Assembly: GCF_000002075.1 (NCBI RefSeq)
Contig: NW_004797693.1
Span: 266,969-330,968, forward strand
From: Aplysia californica
Lineage: Eukaryota
Direction: 5' to 3'
DNA: 64,000 bases
In this document: positions 22,394 to 62,648 of the stretch, in pieces
Layout: every line of letters starts with the position of its first letter
Position numbering within the stretch: the first letter of the stretch is position 1
Position numbers and translations under genes: made by a program
The notes under the pieces: generated by a model
What the model was told of the DNA's origin: nothing
What the model saw: only the letters and a program-made list of their open reading frames with translations
Databases searched by the model: none

Positions 22394-22533
22394 CCTGTGA
22401 GCCATGCAACAAACCCGGACATATCTGCAACCCTGACACAGGGAAATGTGAATGTCCACCCAACACTGAGGGCCCGAACTGTGAGGTGTGCATCAGGGAT
22501 TGTTGGGGCTTCACCAAAGACCAGGGCTGCAAG
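22394..22533 (+). CDS. LAMA1/2: Laminin alpha exon 19, LE (CEPCNKPGHIC...KDQGCK)
   Basis: tcacag / gtcagt, 140 nt, phase 1-0. Confidence 0.94.
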
Positions 22534-23350: not shown

Positions 23351-23512
23351 AAAAGTGATTTGAGAAAGGCGTCTAAGAAGAGAAAGCAAGAGTGCAGGAG
23401 AAGAAGGCGGAGAGGCAGAGGAAAAAAGAAAAATGGCAAAAATAGAGGGAAGAATGATAAAAAGAGGAGAAGGAGGAGAAGGAGAAAGAGGATGAAAAGA
23501 TGTAAGGCTAAG
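23351..23512 (+). CDS. Candidate cassette exon encoding a 54-aa polybasic insert (KSDLRKASKKRKQECRRRRRRGRGKKKNGKNRGKNDKKRRRRRRRKRMKRCKAK)
   Basis: ttttcactag acceptor, AAG/gtgaga donor, 162 nt. Open only in the phase-0 frame, which matches the host intron. Confidence 0.6.
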
Positions 23513-26051: not shown

Positions 26052-26279
26052 CCATGTAACTGCAGCCAGTCAGGCTCCGCCTCCCAGCAGTGTGACCCAC
26101 TAACGGGTGCCTGCTCCTGTCTGGAGGGCTACCAGGGCTATAGCTGTGACCAGTGCCTGGTCAGCTTCTATAACTTCCCTGACTGTACGTCCTGCGGCTG
26201 CAATGAGACGGGAGTCATTTCCGACACGTGTATCACAGGCGTGTGTGAGTGTGATGGCATGGGACAGTGCTTTTGTAAG
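26052..26279 (+). CDS. LAMA1/2: Laminin alpha exon 20, LE (PCNCSQSGSASQQCDPLTG...GQCFCK)
   Basis: tttcag / gtaatc, 228 nt, phase 0-0. Confidence 0.94.
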
Positions 26280-38327: not shown

Positions 38328-38467
38328 CATGTTACGACGGCTGCACAGGGATCCTTCTGAAAGATATGGAGGAACTCGCTGCAAGCCTGGTCAACATCAA
38401 CTTCACTGGAGCTGTCTACCCCTGGGACAGGCTGAACGAGCTGTCGGATGAAGGCAAAGCCCTATCG
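38328..38467 (+). CDS. LAMA1/2: Laminin alpha exon 30, start of coiled coil (CYDGCTGILLKDMEEL...PWDRL)
   Basis: gctcag / gtaaac, 140 nt, CxxxCTxxLLxD motif. Confidence 0.92.
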
Positions 38468-39031: not shown

Positions 39032-39546
39032 TTGTTTGTTTGGTAAGTGTTTTATGGTGCTTGCAACTGCGTAAGGTCATATAAGCGGGCGGTACACATT
39101 AAACATTTTCAGTTTGTAGGAATTTTTTTTGCCTGAGTAAGGGCCGAAGCCTACTCTCATCAATTTTAGACCACCAAGGGATCTTTAACGTGTGCAACTT
39201 GCCCTCGGGACCTCCGAGATTTTTCATCCTTGTCCGAGAAGGCTAGGTGTAGATCTTTCCTACCAGAAGATCAGGGGTGTGGCTGAAAGACAGCAGTAAA
39301 GAGCCAGGGAGTTGCAGTAGAAAGGCTGCAGAAAGAGTCAAGCGCCCAGAGGAGGGGGCAAAGGAGGTGAAGGGGTGGGGGCAGAAAGTGGAGACGAAAG
39401 CAGACAATACAACATTGCTAGAGAGCAGAGAAGAAGGTGGAAGAGACAATTTTAGTGAAGAACATTTTTCGGTCACTACCCAGATTCGAACCTGGGACCT
39501 TTGAATGAGAGTCGAACACCTTAACCTCTAGGCCACGAGAGTGCCC
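39032..39546 (-). mobile_element. Full-length tRNA-derived DeuSINE-like element with Nimb-type tail
   Basis: Minus strand: A box TGGCCTAGAGG, B box GGTTCGAATCT, Deu/Nin-like CTCGGACAAGGATG..GAGGTCCC..GCACACGTTAAAGATCCC, tail GCTTATATGACCTTA..GTTGCAAGC plus (CAAA)n. Confidence 0.8.
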
Positions 39547-39549
39547 TCC

Positions 39550-39848
39550 CCTCTCGTCAGGGACCCGATGTTGTGTCCTTGAGAAAGGCACTTCACACGA
39601 ATTTTCCTCACTTCACCCAGTTGAGAATGGGTACCTAGCTATAGACAGTGAAAGATCTTGTCAGTTTGTTAGTTTTTGAGTACTTAATCAGTTGCTTGCA
39701 CTGTATGCTTCCCGGGAAGCTGAGAATGTTCCTGAATATTTTATATTCTGCTGGGGTAATAATATAGTGTAAAGTGCCTAGAGCTTGCTGTAGAGCAGGG
39801 TAATGCGTTATACAAATGCTATTTATTTATTATTATTATTATTATTAT
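39550..39848 (+). mobile_element. Family B SINE; other partial copies at ~5680-5862, 20130-20285, 37940-38175, 62375-62530
   Basis: TGTGTCCTTGAGAAAGGCACTT..CACCCAG..AATGGGTACC; 3' end tgtaaagtgcctagagc..tatacaaatgctatt(att)n. Confidence 0.78.
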
Positions 39849-39886
39849 GTTCCTTGCCTCAAGCATTACCTATTGTGGAATTGCAG

Positions 39887-39988
39887 GAGTCTCTTCGCGC
39901 CCTTGAAGCAGCCGGCTCAGACAACCTGAAAGATATGAAAGAGTCGGCAGATACATATAACCAAATTGCCGACAAATTGATTCATCGA
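39887..39988 (+). CDS. LAMA1/2: Laminin alpha exon 31, coiled coil (ESLRALEAAG...DKLIHR)
   Basis: ttgcag / gtgagt, 102 nt. Confidence 0.88.
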
Positions 39989-40540
39989 GTGAGTACAACA
40001 TTCTGTCTCTCCCGCCTTTCGTTAACACGGGGTGTCTATTTCATCCCAGGCTTTTTTCCTATCATCCTTGAGTAATATATCCTCTATACAAATCCAGTAA
40101 CTAGCAATCAGTATGCTACTGTTTGAAATGCTCCTATTATTCTCATAATGATGAAACATTCCATCAGAGGACGATGAAAAAAAGGTGAAAAAAGAGTGAA
40201 GAGAGAATGTACAGCTCCTACCTGACTTGCCACCCCTACATAATCTTCTTAATCATATGTAGCTACAAATTCCTACACTGAGTCTCTGTACAGTGCCTAT
40301 TGACATGACGTCTTGCTATCTGTGCTAGACAATGCATGCATACCCTGACAACTTGGTTTCTGAATGTCTAAGGGCTGATGGTTTCTTGATCTCTCTGTTC
40401 TCTGTTTCTAGTCTGCTGCTTCTACTTAAAAGTGAAATATAAAGACAAAATCTGCAATTCTGGTTACAGAGAGAACAAATAAAACAAGCTGTGAAAACTA
40501 AGAGAAGTGATCTAGATAAAAAGAAACATTTTCCTTTAAA

Positions 40541-40701
40541 CACTTTGTGGCCACTTGGGGCGATAGTGCGGCCGTGAAAATTATCCATTCTGGTCACCTG
40601 GCGCAGTTCTGTGCCAGGTCTGTGAAGTCTGATGCAGTTGCTCTCCTGGCTGGGTGATCAGATGGGGTATTTTGTACTGCTGGCTGTGTGACTGCAAAGT
40701 G
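40541..40701. mobile_element. Short MITE with TTAA-like flanks; second copy at 63055-63186
   Basis: TIR CACTTTGTGGCCAC / GTGACTGCAAAGTG; interiors of the two copies highly similar. Confidence 0.72.
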
Positions 40702-42005
40702 GTAAAATAAAGAAAAAACAACGCAGAAACAAACCCAGAAGTCCAGAAGTTACTTTTCTTCAAATAGAAAACAAGACAGTCTTGCACAAAGTTAAAACCA
40801 AGTCAGACCCAATGCGCACAAGGAAATACTTTAATTCACATAACAGCACAAATGTTATTTTGTGAGCAGCGTATCTGCATGATNNNNNNNNNNNNNNNNN
40901 NNNNNNNNNNNNNNNNNNNNNNNNNNNNNNNNNNNNNNNNNNNNNNNNNNNNNNNNNNNNNNNNNNNNNNNNNNNNNNNNNNNNNNNNNNNNNNNNNNNN
41001 NNNNNNNNNNNNNNNNNNNNNNNNNNNNNNNNNNNNNNNNNNNNNNNNCCTGCACACACACAGACACATACAAAACACACACAAAACACACTCATACACA
41101 CAGACACATTGATAAGCACTCACAGGCACAAACATCCACACACACAAATACACACACATACACATCCACATGCTCACTCACAAATACACACACACAGTTT
41201 TCTCTCTTCACTTTTCATTGTCTCTGTGCATGCTCTAAAATCAGATGTAAGGCACACATATCTATGAGTTTGTACTATATTATTATATTCTTCATACTGC
41301 TTAGACTAAACACACTTGTGAGAGGGCTGTATTTTGTCTCATTTTAAAGAAATTTAGTTAAGTTGAGACCGCAGGAACATCGTTTCTAACTTAAGCATAG
41401 AAATATTTCCTGTCCACCTAGTACATGATAGTAAAAGATTTTAACGACACTTCCATATTATGACTTGAAAGTGAAATGTTATTTTGTAGTTGCTCTCTCA
41501 TCCGCACCCTTTCAGTAATGTCACTGTTATTGTATATGAGTATGAGCAGTCCAAACAGCCAAACAATCATGCGAATCTTACTGATCGAGTCTTTTTGTTT
41601 TTGTTGATTGTTTTGGGTTTTATTTTTTTTTCTTCTTTGAAGCTTAACACCCTGCCAGACACAATTTAGGTAATTTATATTGGTCTTCATTGCTCCTGGC
41701 TCAGAGAGAAAGAAAATGTTTAAGTTCAAGTATGGAAGAGAAAAGCTCAGACACCTCGTTAATTTGAACATGAGTACTTCTGAGTATTGGTGACATTTAT
41801 TCTTTATGTGTATAGAGGCGAATGTGTCAAAGTTTGAATCATTAGAAAGAGTCCGGATGGAGGCTGGTTGTCGGGGTGGGGGGATGGGTGGGGGGGATGG
41901 GTGGGGGGGGGGGTGAGTCTTTCACCACCCCAGTGTATTGATGGTTTACTGTGTTGAAGACTGAAAAACATGAATTATTTCTTTTTTCTTTGTGTTTTTG
42001 CTTAG

Positions 42006-42029
42006 AGTAACACAACGTGTGAAGGAGAG
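42006..42029 (+). CDS. Candidate 24-nt microexon (SNTTCEGE) in the coiled coil
   Basis: Long polypyrimidine tract ending ttttgcttag, consensus donor GAG/gtaagt, phase 0-0, no stop. Confidence 0.7.
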
Positions 42030-45000
42030 GTAAGTTCTGCCAGACACAATAACGTATGTGTGTGTGCCGACGCTGTGCTTTGCTGCGCCTTCTTAACCCT
42101 CATTTTTTGACAATCCCCTTTCAAACCCTCTGTTTTATTTTTGAAAAGATTTCTATTCCCATATCAATATTTGTTGTGCTGTGCATTTTTTCTACTTTTA
42201 TATTAATATAAATTTTTTTTAACTTTTGATTTGTAGTTTTGTAGTTACCTGTGGGAATGTTTCTTTTATGTTCCATTGGTTTATAGATTGTATCAGAAGT
42301 GACAGGTTTCGAAATCAGAGAAAATAGAAAGTCGTAGTAATCCCAATTATACTCTCACTTTTTGTCTTGGTAGCTTAGTTTTGCAGTTGTTGCTGCTCAA
42401 GAAATTTCTAGATGATCAGAAATGATGAGCTAAAAAAAAAGAAAAATTGAACATAGAAGAAAAAAAATTATGTTGTATACTTATCATTGGTAATAATATT
42501 TTTGTGTGTCTTTAGATGCAATTAGTCAAATTGGTTCATATGTTTATATAAAAAAAGCAATAGGTTTGAAGTTCGAGAAAGATTAAAAGGAAAGAATTTA
42601 TTTTAGTTTCATTAGAACCCCCATTCATCCTTTGTTAAAGATGCTTGCTTCACTATGTGCTCATAGTAAGTATGAGTGCTCATGCTCTAAGCTAAAATGT
42701 TTGATTTAGTTACAAAACCTGCTTTTATAGGTTTGAACTGCATATACGAATGGTAATGATGTGTTTGAACTGGTAGGCATGCTCATATCTGTTGTGCATG
42801 CTGCTTTCAGCTGCAGTGAATGGCCTTACTTGATTGACAAGATGTAGACATGGGCAATGCAGAGTGGGTGTATGCAGGGTCCTTATGTGTAGGAACTACA
42901 ATTTGAGTTTGTGAATCTGTTATGGAAATGGAGTTTGAGCATGGTTTTATCATTAATAGTGGAAAGTGGAAGTTTTTGTAAACATACTGCCCTATTTACC
43001 ACAATGGTGAAGTCTGCTTTGATATAAGATTTGGTTGAGTGAACATGTTGGAGTGGTTAGGTGTTCTATTCACACCCCCCCCCCCAACTTTTTCTTCCTC
43101 CTACATGTTTTTAAAAACCATTTAGTTTGATCCTGATTGAAAGATTGGGTAAAGATTGTTGCAGTTATGCATTTGCTGTCACAAGGAAATATTAAATGTT
43201 AGTAAATAGATTACTGTTCATATCTTAATAAATTTAAAATGAATAGGAAATGTTTCTGTTACTTTTTTTTGGGTTCTCCCATGTATCAATAAATAGGCCT
43301 ACTCTTTAGCACATATTTGAATCAAAGCTACATTTAGCCATAAAATTAAACACTGTAGGCCCCTGTCTTAACGAGACAAAAAGTTGGTGAGTGAGCATCA
43401 TGGCGGCTTTTTTGTAATGTTTTTACTTCTCCAAATTGGTTACGTCTGGTTTGTACTCATGTCAGCCCACAGTAATCACATCACAGTTACTTTTTAATAA
43501 TATTTTGAGACTAATGCCATATAGGCTTTTGTTTCGCGTTAAGTCAATAAAATTGGTCTAATAGATGTAAAAATCCTTTCTTTTTTTGTCACTGTTTGGC
43601 CAATGTTTGAATCAATCTTCCTTATTTTACAGTTTATAATATGTGGAAGATCAAGTCAGAATTCTATTTTTTTTACCGTCTTTTAATTTTTTGTTGCCGT
43701 AGACCATAGATGGGTTTTTGGTTTTTGTGCTTATGTTTTTTTTTAGGATGTATTTTCCTTTTATGATTCTTGGCTATTTACAAAGCTTTAGCTATAGGCA
43801 GACTGATTTTCAGAACTTTGCAGTTGAAGGTTTTAAACCGGTTGGCACGCACTGTATTTTTGGGGACAATCTTCTTTATTATCGCCTTCTTAAAATGTGT
43901 TCATTTCCTACCCTCTTGGGAAAAAAATTGTGTTAGTTCATGTATTTGTGTATTTTGTATCTTGAATGCACAAAATGTCTGTGGTGGAATACTTCCAATA
44001 TATAGTTGAAGGGACGTTTGAATTTTCGAGTTGGTGATCCACAGCTAACATAATATAAATTGCATAATATTATTTCGTTGATGTCGTTGCCATCTATTAT
44101 ATAATTTCCTTACTTTTTACTGTCCATTAGTAATTATTCATTTTGCTCTGTAACGATTTTAAAGATTATATTACAACCTATGAAAGTCAAGCCTCTTCAT
44201 TATAATTGAAATGCACTTAAGCTTTCTTGTACATGTTGGCTGGAATTTTTCTCCGTAGGCTTCTTAATGACATCAATATTAATAGGTATTCACATTCACG
44301 GAAAAATATTAACAGACCAGAGCTCTTTCTGGTAGAGTAAACTTCTAGAAAGCAGAACTAAAATTTCCTAAGGGAGTCTAAATAATAATTATTGACGGTT
44401 TGCCCGATGTATGAAGGCTTAAAGTTTATTGTTGTTTTATCTGTTGCTGGCTTTCATATTCCAAGTCACCTGGTTATAGTGGGGATTTGGTTGGTGTTTA
44501 AATGTTAAGGCAATGCAAGCTAAGTGAGAGAGAGACTGTCCTTTTCAAAATAAAGATTACAGTTACTGTAACCAATCTGCTGAATTCATGTTCCAGCTCA
44601 CACTTTCCTTTTCACTAGAAGGATCTTTTTAGGTTACTTTGATTTGAGCTTTTTTATTGATCTGTTCTCTGTAAAATTGTTAGCCTTTAGTTTCATTTTC
44701 TGTCTTTCAAGTTTTAAGAAAGACGAAATTTCTTACAAATTTACCAAAAAAAGAAAAATTGCAGAAGTAACAATGAAATTACCTTCTCTCTATCTAAATG
44801 TAGTTATTGCCTTTCATGATTTGAATAAAGTCTCAAAAGATTTTTATAGCTGGAAAATTATACATGTGAATTTTAAGTTTATAGGGAATTTGAATTTTTA
44901 AAGATCTCTCTGGATTTATGTAAATGAACGTTTTGCCTCCTTTTTAAAATGGAAGTCTTAAATTCTTGGGGGGGGTCCTCCCTTTTTCCAAAGTATCCAG

Positions 45001-46613
45001 TCAGGACTTCCTTTTATTTTGCTTTTATATTTTGAAAAGTATTTTTATCGTGTCCAATGAAATGCGATGTTCTGCACTTGTTCAGCTTTTCATTTACCTC
45101 TTTTATTTTACTTTGTTTTTAGTTGATAACATAGTACATTGATTCTCCTCATCAAATCCATCATTTCAGTAGTATCACTATGCCCCCACCTTTAATTTTT
45201 ATTTACAACAACATACACTTATTCGGTATTATCATTCTAAATGTTTAGTTTGATATTTATAAAACTTTATGAATATCTTTATACAATTTAATTATCAGTT
45301 ATTTCTTCAACATACTGGGGTTAATTATCACAGTGTATATTTCCACTTAAATGGGCTCACTCTTTCAGCACTTTTCAGGTTAAAGAATATTAGGAACTAG
45401 TAAGAATATGATGTGGTCCTTTCTTTTACGGACTGTCTCATCATAAAGTATAATAGTATAATATTATCCTTGGTCATAATGAAAGTATGTTTTGATATGA
45501 AACAAAGCATTGTTTTTCTTCAAGGCTTTCTCTAAACCACTGTTTTTCTCCGTTCTTTTCAAATGTTTTAATTTAGCTTGTTGATATTCTTAAAAAATAC
45601 ATAATTCGTTGTTCACTGTGTTGTTTTGTTTTGTTTTTCATCCTGGGTTTGATATAGAAATGTGCGGACAGGAAAAAGTACCATCCTTTCTACTCAGTTG
45701 AATAAGCCTCCAACTATATTTCAACAATACAGAACTTAGTGCTTTGGTAGATACTTAAGCTTGAAATTTTTTTCCATTAGTCCTTCTTGGGTTCTATGTG
45801 TAAGGTCAACATTGTAAATGTGTACTTCAGGAATGATAATGGGGATTCCAAAAAAAAAATTGGGAGGGGGGGGGTATTTTCACTCACAAAACAACTACTT
45901 TAACGAAACATAGCAACTAGTTTACGTTGAGAGTTGTTTATTTATCATTTTGTATCCCCCTGAAGGATTTCCTGACTTGATCATTACTCCTTGTGACTGA
46001 TCTGCTCTTGCTTAATTATCATGTCAGTCCCTTGTGGACAAACAGCATTGATAGAGCATAGCTTTATTATAGTCTGTCGCTACTGATTGTCATATTATGG
46101 ACTGCTCAGTGTAAAACTCCATCGTACATCACTTTTTGAAATAGTGTATTGCGGAGTTTTACACTTTTTAATGAGCAGTCAATATGCTCATTTCCTAGTG
46201 ACTGGATGAATTAAGGGTAAAATAGGAAAGCATTTTTCCTGTGATCCATGTAATGTCTAAAAGAGCCTTGAATCAAAGTCACTACTTTTTATTGTCATCC
46301 GCTGCCCTGTCTGTGAATCAAAGTCACAATTTTTAAAAATTTTATACCTTGTGTAATTTCTGACAGAGCTTTGAGTTACAACTTTTTATTCTAATCCAGT
46401 GCGTTTCAGTTCTTTTAAAACGCTCATGAAACCTGAGGTCTGGATGTGACATAAATTATGATAATGACTAATTGAAAGTTTGTGTTTCTGAAATTCTGTT
46501 TTCCTGTCAACTTTAATATTATATTCTTGGTTTAAAGTCTGCTTGCTCAGGTTAATAAAATATTCAGTTTTGTTGAGATTTGTGCTAATTCTTAGCAATT
46601 TTGTCCTCTTCAG

Positions 46614-46725
46614 CTGAGTACCACGGGAGGCATAGCCTGTCGCACCCAGAAGAGTGCTGAGCAGGTCAAGAATAATGCCACAGACCTGGAAAAAGTCATA
46701 GACCAACTCTTTAAGGACATCAAAA
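46614..46725 (+). CDS. LAMA1/2: Laminin alpha exon 32, coiled coil (LSTTGGIACRTQK...FKDIK)
   Basis: cttcag / gtaata, 112 nt, phase 0-1. Confidence 0.87.
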
Positions 46726-61231: not shown

Positions 61232-62648
61232 TATTTTGAGTAGTATAGTGATGGCTTCAGTGCTTTTCTTGGTTATATTATTATTACATCAGCCATGAAA
61301 CTAGCACCCATACATTCTTTGTTTCACAAAAAATATTGGATACTTGTTTCAAATTTCTTTCACTCTTTTGCCCGCATTCACAATACAGTAGTGTGTCCTT
61401 TTTATTTATTTTTTTCAGCTCTCGTATTGTACCTATGTCTGACATAGTAGAGTTACACTTTCTGCTGCATTCGTGCGTTATACTCATTTTATGCAACCCT
61501 GTATATCAAAATGTCATATCCTTTCTTGTCCTTTTCTTTACTTTAACATAAAAAACAAAAAAAAACCTACATTTATTCACATATAATCCTCTTATGATTC
61601 AGACATGCAAAATATCGATAGCTCTTTCTTCAATATGTGCTTTGTTCGAAGTATTATAGGCTTTAAAAATTTGGCTTGTTGATATCTATATATTATGAGA
61701 TTGTGTTGTAATTTTTTTCTCCATGGAACGTAGGCTTTATTTAATTATTGAACATTTGTTGTTCTGTGGGAAAGGTTTTCAGGGAATGAATGTAACCTGC
61801 TGCTTCACTGTGACATGTGAAGTGCTTTTTGAACTTCTAAAGCTGAGGTTTTGAGTTATATATGCATCAGCTTTTACTGCCCATAAAGTGTCTTGTTTAA
61901 ATACGTTAACTGGTTGCGTTTTCAATGCTACATCAAAACCAATGATTTGAAGGCATGGAGAACAAGGATTTTTCCTTGTTGGCATGTTTTACATTGGCAT
62001 CTATGCTGTTCAAAGTAGATCCACTCCTAAGAAGAGTATGTAGTGCTCTGCCCAGAAAAAAAAGCCCATAGAAGTGCTGGACACTGGTGAGGTACTCTTG
62101 AAACTTGTTTGGATACATGGAAGTTGAGGTTCAAACCTGTTAAGAAATTATAATTATTTTCATCGTCCTACCTGGAATGCTTTCTTTACTCTTATACTAA
62201 TATGTATAGTCCATATGTCATGGCTGTCTTGTGTTCAGGCTTACCTTTTACATATGTCGTGTATATGGCAATAGAAGTTCTGAGTGGGGACAATGTGTTG
62301 AAGAAATAAGCAGATGAGGGATGGGGGGATGGGAGAGTCTGTGGCGGTAAAGAACTTGACTTTGTGATTTAATAATTAATTATGTAAGACAGATGGTCAA
62401 ATACCTTGCTCCAGATATGCGTTATGAAAAAGAAAGTTCTGGTTATGCCAATGAATTTTAGTGTGTAAAGCGCATAGAGCTTTCTGTCAAGCGAGAATAT
62501 GCGCTATACAAATGCTATTTATTACTATTGATGAATTTTACGATCTTTTCCAAGCATGTTGTTGTTGGTGTTGTGGAACTTTTTAGATTATAATCTTCCT
62601 GTGGATGTTCCTCCACTAAAGGTGAGCTGTTTGTCCGTGTTGTTGCAG

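What the first reader, a model, noticed from the sequence alone, without database searches (positions are those of the whole stretch)
42006..42029. 24-nt microexon adding an N-glycan sequon and a partner cysteine to the coiled coil
Seen: a 6.6-kb intron holds tttcttttttctttgtgtttttgcttag/AGTAACACAACGTGTGAAGGAGAG/gtaagt, phase 0-0, encoding SNTTCEGE. Inclusion gives ..IHR-SNTTCEGE-LSTTGGIACRTQK, creating an N-T-T sequon and a Cys 12 residues before the otherwise lone Cys of exon 32. A TGC lies just before the AG, and TGCATG occurs in the flanking intron (e.g. ~41227, ~42795). Established: UGC near the 3' splice site is the SRRM3/4 (eMIC) microexon motif and UGCAUG is the RBFOX motif. Inference: a small disulfide knob interrupts the alpha-chain coiled coil, possibly regulated by tissue (e.g. 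neural); skipping would expose a free thiol.
Basis: partly seen in the sequence, partly recalled or inferred. Interest (0 to 1): 0.72.

Follow-up and report, generated by a model that had tools for sequence, protein, structure and literature searches.

The report
Switchable cysteine microexon in snail laminin
A 24-letter optional exon in a gastropod laminin gene is spliced in in some samples and skipped in others, sits at the same place in distant snails and sea slugs, and adds eight residues with a cysteine that break the rod's regular repeat and likely close a small disulfide loop; which tissue uses it is not known.

Summary
The microexon is real and alternative. Public contigs splice 39988>42006 (three runs, three studies) and 42029>46614 (two runs); two other runs skip it. 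The gene is a gastropod laminin alpha1/2-like chain. The same 8-residue insert occurs in Biomphalaria, Elysia, Physella and Littorina, and RefSeq isoforms of B. glabrata and L. saxatilis differ by exactly it. Skipping keeps the heptad phase continuous; inclusion (7+1 residues) breaks it. The cysteine is in 5 of 6 species, the sequon in only 2 of 6. An intrachain C-x11-C loop is the likeliest chemistry here, because Physella lost both cysteines together. It is not shown: Littorina has only the microexon cysteine, and this genome's gamma chain has a cysteine at about the same height. Neural, eMIC or RBFOX control has no support: both motifs are at background frequency, and tissues are not given. 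The orthologues are in automated annotation; I found no paper on it.

The parts
38328..38467 (+). Exon that starts the alpha-chain coiled coil and holds the anchor cysteines (first Cys = offset 0)
   Evidence: Junction 38467>39887 in contig of run X4; aligns to orthologues
39887..39988 (+). Upstream exon, 102 nt, ends in phase 0 (offsets +46 to +79)
   Evidence: Laid in contigs of X4, X7, X9, X10
41960..42005 (+). Acceptor region of the microexon: 44-nt AG-free zone, U-rich tract, TGC at -7, TAG
   Evidence: Sequence; AG-free zone longer than in 34 of 42 other acceptors; TGC not above background
42006..42029 (+). 24-nt cassette microexon, SNTTCEGE; Cys at offset +84 (heptad e if the upstream phase is continued); sequon at +81
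   Evidence: Junctions 39988>42006 in X7, X10, X18 and 42029>46614 in X7, X18; skipped in X4, X9; orthologous inserts
42030..42035 (+). Donor GTAAGT of the microexon
   Evidence: Sequence; used in X7 and X18 (cut +2)
46614..46725 (+). Downstream exon; its Cys is at +88 when the microexon is skipped and +96 when included (heptad b); a Gly precedes it by four residues
   Evidence: Junctions; single copy in the genome search; Cys and Gly conservation

Best explanation
This is an alternatively spliced 24-nt cassette exon of a gastropod laminin alpha1/2-like gene that inserts eight residues about 80 residues down the long-arm coiled coil, breaks its heptad phase, and supplies a cysteine that likely pairs with the cysteine 12 residues downstream to close a small disulfide loop. 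Shown: both splice forms exist; the exon is shared by Heterobranchia and Caenogastropoda; the skipped form has a continuous heptad. Inferred: the included stretch leaves the helix (about 80%); the two cysteines bond within the chain in this species (about 55%); the result is two laminin isoforms whose rods differ locally in flexibility or binding surface, used in different tissues or stages (sample dependence seen, tissue unknown). The glycan is likely incidental. The regulator is unknown; eMIC-type neural control about 20-25%.
For: Inclusion in 3 of 5 informative runs (X7, X10, X18; three studies) and skipping in 2 of 5 (X4, X9; two studies); X9 and X10 are different samples of one study. RefSeq X1 versus X3 differ by exactly the 8 residues in B. 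glabrata and L. saxatilis. Of 172 aligned proteins 13 have the 8-residue insert, all gastropods; 151 have none; 8 have other lengths. Heptad phase is the same on both sides in 8 of 9 skip-form sequences. Both cysteines are present in this window, B. glabrata, B. pfeifferi and E. crispata; both are absent in Physella, which keeps the insert. In the included-form orthologues checked they are the only cysteines between the anchor and LG1; no other was seen in this window's rod exons (about ten profile positions not covered). A Gly inside the putative loop is kept in all seven euthyneuran-type sequences. The beta chain has no Cys at that height. Single-chain AlphaFold models break the helix at the insert and run unbroken in a skip form; weak, see below.
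Against: Littorina has the microexon Cys but no downstream Cys, so intrachain pairing cannot be the ancestral or general role. The co-loss argument rests on one event. The gamma chain of this genome has a Cys at +86 from its own anchor, near +84 and +88 of the alpha chain. The downstream Cys stands alone in the skipped form, which is the only form seen in two runs. The inclusion model has mean pLDDT 53, and the two models use different species and alignments. Bulinus is the 1 of 9 skip forms whose best heptad phase differs. Contigs drop rare variants, so 'one form per run' is not a PSI. No disulfide was observed by any search.
Confidence: 0.55

Rival explanations
1. Interchain switch: an alpha-chain Cys at +84 (included) or +88 (skipped) bonds to the gamma-chain Cys at +86, and splicing decides whether and how the extra alpha-gamma link forms. 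In caenogastropods only the included form would have it.
For: Gamma-chain Cys at +86 from its anchor in this genome. It would explain Littorina's unpaired microexon Cys and the exposed Cys of the skipped form.
Against: By my reading of the sequence the gamma Cys is at a core (a) position, while the alpha cysteines are at e and b; a-to-b or a-to-e bonds need local unwinding (own knowledge of coiled-coil geometry). Offsets from the anchors give only an approximate register, since deviations from a regular coil are common in the long arm (PMC6744579, passages). Gamma chains of other gastropods could not be fetched.
Confidence: 0.2
2. The Cys links laminin to another laminin or to another matrix protein, and splicing tunes that cross-link; the helix break only exposes it.
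For: Lone Cys in Littorina's included form and in euthyneuran skipped forms; the downstream Cys is at an outward heptad position.
Against: No partner identified; the co-loss in Physella is more simply explained by pairing within the chain.
Confidence: 0.13
3. The length is what matters: the 8-residue insert is a hinge or register shift, and the cysteines and sequon are tolerated passengers.
For: Physella keeps the 8-residue insert with no Cys and no sequon in it; the length is 8 in all six species.
Against: Cys at position 5 is kept in 5 of 6 species across both subclasses, although the rod is otherwise free of cysteines.
Confidence: 0.12
4. On regulation: it is a neural, eMIC (Srrm234)-dependent microexon. 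This is a separate question from the chemistry.
For: 24 nt, frame-preserving, TGC at -7, a fairly long AG-free zone, features listed for eMIC targets (10.1101/2021.02.24.432780, passages). The genome has two exons that look like the eMIC domain (Pfam SRRM_C E 0.59, under the cut-off; second exon recognised from a recalled motif).
Against: TGC is as close in 9 of 42 other acceptors; TGCATG is at background and far away. UGC is neither universal nor strictly needed in SRRM3/4 targets (10.1101/2024.09.17.613571, passages). The insert is in the only model of Physella and in 8 of 9 B. glabrata models (not independent), which does not look like a neuron-only exon.
Confidence: 0.22

Closest known systems
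RefSeq isoform pairs of laminin alpha1/2-like in Biomphalaria glabrata (XP_055884507-9 versus XP_055884511) and Littorina saxatilis (XP_070195260 versus XP_070195262)
   Same: Same junction, same length, same alternative status.
   Different: Automated annotation only; no function or paper attached in my searches. Littorina lacks the downstream Cys.
L-beta knob of laminin beta chains
   Same: [quoted passage not shown]
   Different: That knob is in the beta chain, constitutive, about 215 residues from the anchor and rich in cysteines (this genome's copy). Here: alpha chain, offset +80, one or two cysteines, switched by splicing.
SRRM3/4 (eMIC)-dependent neural microexons
   Same: Size, frame preservation, a UGC near the acceptor.
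   Different: Neural bias and eMIC dependence untested; the motif is not above background here; the host is a secreted matrix protein.
Four-residue alternative segment of mammalian LAMA2
   Same: A very short isoform difference in an alpha1/2-type chain (Artibeus X4 versus X5).
   Different: It lies at residue 2482, in the LG region, not in the rod, and has no cysteine.

Membership tests
Laminin alpha1/2-like chain | LN, LE arrays, two L4 domains, coiled coil with anchor cysteines, then LG domains, colinear with named orthologues | tested here: met
   Colinear tblastn of B. glabrata X1 from residue 231 to 2363; its Pfam architecture; rod exons. The start of LN and LG2-5 lie outside the window and were not read.
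Alternative microexon | 30 nt or less, canonical splice sites, both junctions used | tested here: met
Alternative microexon | Skipped form also exists | tested here: met
   39988>46614 with no letters between in X4 and X9
eMIC/SRRM3-4-dependent neural microexon | UGC near the 3' splice site and long AG exclusion zone | tested here: inconclusive
   TGC at -7 but also in 9 of 42 other acceptors; zone of 44 nt, 8 of 42 longer
eMIC/SRRM3-4-dependent neural microexon | eMIC-domain regulator in the genome | tested here: inconclusive
   SRRM_C match E 0.59, under the cut-off, with a fitting next exon recognised from recall
eMIC/SRRM3-4-dependent neural microexon | High inclusion in neurons, low elsewhere; loss on regulator knock-down | not testable with these tools
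   Runs carry no tissue labels
RBFOX target exon | UGCAUG enriched close to the exon | tested here: not met
   None within about 300 nt; 4 seen against 3.45 expected in the intron. The 'close to the exon' criterion is from my own knowledge.
L-beta-type knob | Interruption of the heptad repeat | tested here: met
   weakly
L-beta-type knob | Constitutive cysteine-rich insert of the beta chain | tested here: not met
   Alpha chain, alternative, one or two cysteines; the true knob is in the beta gene on G000:C879
L-beta-type knob | Disulfide within the chain | not testable with these tools
   Only covariation: both present in 4 species, both lost in 1, one only in 1

The most novel reading that the evidence does not exclude
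A splice-operated disulfide switch in the laminin long arm: the microexon reroutes an alpha-chain cysteine between an intrachain loop and an extra alpha-gamma (or laminin-laminin) link. It is one of three cassette exons shared among snails (a polybasic exon in the short arm, this rod exon, a 12-nt exon in LG1) by which apogastropods make tissue-specific laminins from one alpha1/2 gene, where vertebrates use paralogues.
Probability: 0.2. Interest if true: 0.72.

Novelty: new variant of a known kind. Interest (0 to 1): 0.45.

Why it matters
The textbook laminin rod has three disulfides at its start, one at its end and one knob in the beta chain (PMC6744579). An optional, cysteine-bearing break in the alpha-chain rod, kept since heterobranch and caenogastropod snails split, would be a way to tune basement-membrane mechanics or binding by splicing that I did not find described. 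It is also a conserved microexon in a secreted matrix protein of a phylum whose microexons are little studied. The limits: the exon is already in automated annotations of two relatives, it was seen only in gastropods, and no function is shown.

Tried and rejected
Three raw-read RNA runs (X21-X23) had almost no reads on the exons, so they say nothing on splicing. The run index listed no holder on record as RNA; the GT..AG junctions show that the laid contigs are spliced. 8 of 24 listed runs were laid; X13 (another organism) was not. The first protein search was empty because only proteins up to 2,000 residues were searched. No protein identical to the window's own exons was among the hits, so its own annotation was not seen. 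An upstream acceptor at 39864 was considered for the preceding exon and dropped: contigs use 39887. PDB and ESM Atlas searches with a gamma-chain exon gave no laminin relatives, so the gamma Cys could not be checked in other species. The cross-linking paper on laminin-111 register is not held; I know it only from one sentence of a review. No complex was folded: alpha-beta-gamma binding is textbook and a score would not place a disulfide. Origin of the microexon by duplication of the start of the next exon was considered, because both begin x-N/S-x-T; only 10 of 24 bases match (counted by hand), so it is unsupported. 25 of 197 long proteins were left out of the insert count because the rod-start domain did not align; some are other proteins or partial models. 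Absence from a gene model does not show absence from a genome; this applies to Lymnaea, Bulinus, Plakobranchus, Batillaria, Nucella and Babylonia. Literature: 'laminin alpha' with 'microexon' gave 0 papers; six other searches were seen as listings only (20 of 92; 29: 16 of 20; 30: 20 of 163; 46: 5 of 5; 47: 20 of 4,268; 69: 12 of 1,780), and no title or abstract start concerned this exon. No supplements were read; tables of mollusc splicing events could list it.

Full report
Observation. In the whole window this is the only in-frame candidate of 30 nt or less with a pyrimidine fraction of at least 0.85 and a GTRAG donor. The stretch and the downstream exon each gave one match in the genome.

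The gene. A B. glabrata laminin alpha1-like protein maps colinearly along the + strand from the LN domain to LG1 and has the alpha1/2 architecture with two L4 domains. In the rod region the best identities among the proteins compared are to Lymnaea (42%), Biomphalaria (37%), Plakobranchus and Bulinus (35%), against 28-30% to Lottia and a scallop; caenogastropods were aligned later but not scored. The source is therefore inferred to be an apogastropod, likely a euthyneuran.

Splicing. Eight of 24 listed runs were laid. Three raw-read runs do not cover the exons. Of the five informative contig runs, X7 and X18 show both inclusion junctions and X10 the first one; in X7 one 1,527-nt contig holds 103 nt of the upstream exon, 22 letters laid on 42006-42027 and 114 letters from 46612, with no room for other letters. 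X4 (an 11,887-nt contig) and X9 join 39988 to 46614 directly. X9 and X10 are two samples of one study. Each run showed one form, but contigs drop rare variants, so no inclusion level can be given, and no tissue is named.

Conservation. The same junction carries an 8-residue insert in B. glabrata (8 of 9 models), B. pfeifferi, Elysia crispata, Physella acuta and Littorina saxatilis (2 of 3 models). RefSeq isoforms X1 and X3 differ by exactly this insert in B. glabrata and in L. saxatilis. Littorina is a caenogastropod, Physella and Elysia heterobranchs; the two groups form Apogastropoda (PMC8599328, passages). Of 172 long proteins whose rod start aligned, 13 have the insert, all gastropods, 151 have none and 8 have other lengths; 25 of 197 did not align. 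Isoform sets of Haliotis, Gigantopelta, oysters, mussels, a clam, a scallop and Lingula show other short alternative segments but none here, which suggests, without proving, an apogastropod origin. Models of Lymnaea, Bulinus, Plakobranchus, Batillaria, Nucella and Babylonia lack the insert; they may be skip forms or missed exons.

What is conserved in it. The length is 8 in all six species. Cys at position 5 is in five of six. The sequon is in this window and most B. glabrata models only: His replaces Asn in one B. glabrata model, B. pfeifferi and E. crispata, and it is absent in Physella and Littorina. Several relatives have a sequon at the start of the next exon instead. The glycan is therefore likely incidental to the exon's retention.

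Effect on the rod. The a/d hydrophobic phase is the same before and after the junction in 8 of 9 skip-form sequences (Bulinus, which has a deletion further on, is the exception); eight residues shift it by one. The skipped form is thus the regular, ancestral-length coil and inclusion is the interruption. Single-chain AlphaFold models agree: a break over residues 52-61, which span the insert, in B. glabrata X1 (mean pLDDT 53), and one unbroken helix in Bulinus (pLDDT 82). This is weak: low confidence, one chain, different species and alignments.

The cysteine's partner. For the intrachain loop: both cysteines are present in four species and both are replaced in Physella; they are the only cysteines of the rod in the included-form orthologues checked and, as far as covered, in this window; a glycine between them is kept in euthyneurans; the beta chain has no cysteine between its anchor and its knob. 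Against: Littorina has the microexon cysteine alone. The gamma chain of this genome (G000:C441, assigned from its L4 and LE order, the rod start and a recalled nidogen-binding motif) has a cysteine at +86 from its anchor, close to +84 and +88 of the alpha chain. It reads as a core position, which argues against an easy bond to the alpha cysteines at e or b, but the register is only approximate (PMC6744579, passages). I give the intrachain loop about 55%, an alpha-gamma link 20%, an intermolecular link 13% and no disulfide role 12%.

Regulation. TGC at -7 is real but occurs as close in 9 of 42 other acceptors; TGCATG is at the window's background rate and over 750 nt away. The AG-free zone of 44 nt is longer than in 34 of 42 others. 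eMIC targets are described as having such zones and UGC near the acceptor (10.1101/2021.02.24.432780, passages), but UGC is in about three quarters of SRRM3/4 targets and is not strictly required (10.1101/2024.09.17.613571, passages). An eMIC-like pair of exons is in the genome (under the Pfam cut-off). The machinery is likely there, but nothing ties it to this exon; neural eMIC control about 20-25%.

What is known. The exon's orthologues are in automated annotation. 'Laminin alpha' with 'microexon' found no paper, and listings of six other searches showed none on it; the library lacks most subscription journals and no supplements were read. The scan's own index had nothing near this place and no note with these words. 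It works like a small, optional counterpart of the beta-chain knob but is not a member of that family.

Verdict. Observation confirmed; interpretation partly supported. A real, conserved alternative microexon that switches a cysteine-bearing break in the alpha-chain rod. New variant of a known kind; interest 0.45.

Noticed in passing
window 57805-57816 (+): Second candidate microexon, 12 nt (AGGK), phase 0-0, in the 6.6-kb intron of LG1 (56041-62648). The orthologous four residues are alternative in RefSeq isoforms of B. glabrata, Littorina and Babylonia and present in the Physella model. Its junctions were not checked in this organism's RNA.
   Followed up: partly
window 23351-23512 (+): Candidate 162-nt cassette exon, phase 0-0, very rich in Lys and Arg with two cysteines, between LE exons ending at 22533 and starting at 26052. 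B. glabrata X4, three other B. glabrata models and Bulinus carry a Lys/Asn-rich insert at the same junction; B. glabrata X1 lacks it. A polyanion-binding patch is a guess.
   Followed up: partly
G000:C441 about 517,810 (-), locus L012: Gamma-chain rod cysteine at +86 from the anchor; not checked in other species. The end of the preceding exon is repeated in tandem several times in the following intron.
   Followed up: partly
G000:C323 557,100-557,267 and about 552,726 (-), loci L004, L023: Two exons that together look like the eMIC (SRRM_C) domain of Srrm234.
   Followed up: partly
G000:C3115:3186-3389 (-): An L4 match with the same profile span and nearly the same score as the window's first L4 exon; perhaps an allelic or duplicated piece.
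   Followed up: no
G000:C59 about 282,000-302,000 (-), loci L015-L016: A further laminin alpha-like gene (L4, LE repeats, a rod that looks short, LG-like exons), besides this gene and another alpha-like one on C627.
   Followed up: no
window 39,100-39,750 and 40,640-40,710: Intronic repeats that draw many reads from elsewhere in the transcriptome.
   Followed up: no
proteins P0191-P0193, P0203-P0205, P0209-P0211, P0214, P0217, P0220-P0222: Bivalve alpha1/2 isoforms (two oysters, a clam, mussels) share an alternative 96-residue block of LE repeats.
   Followed up: no
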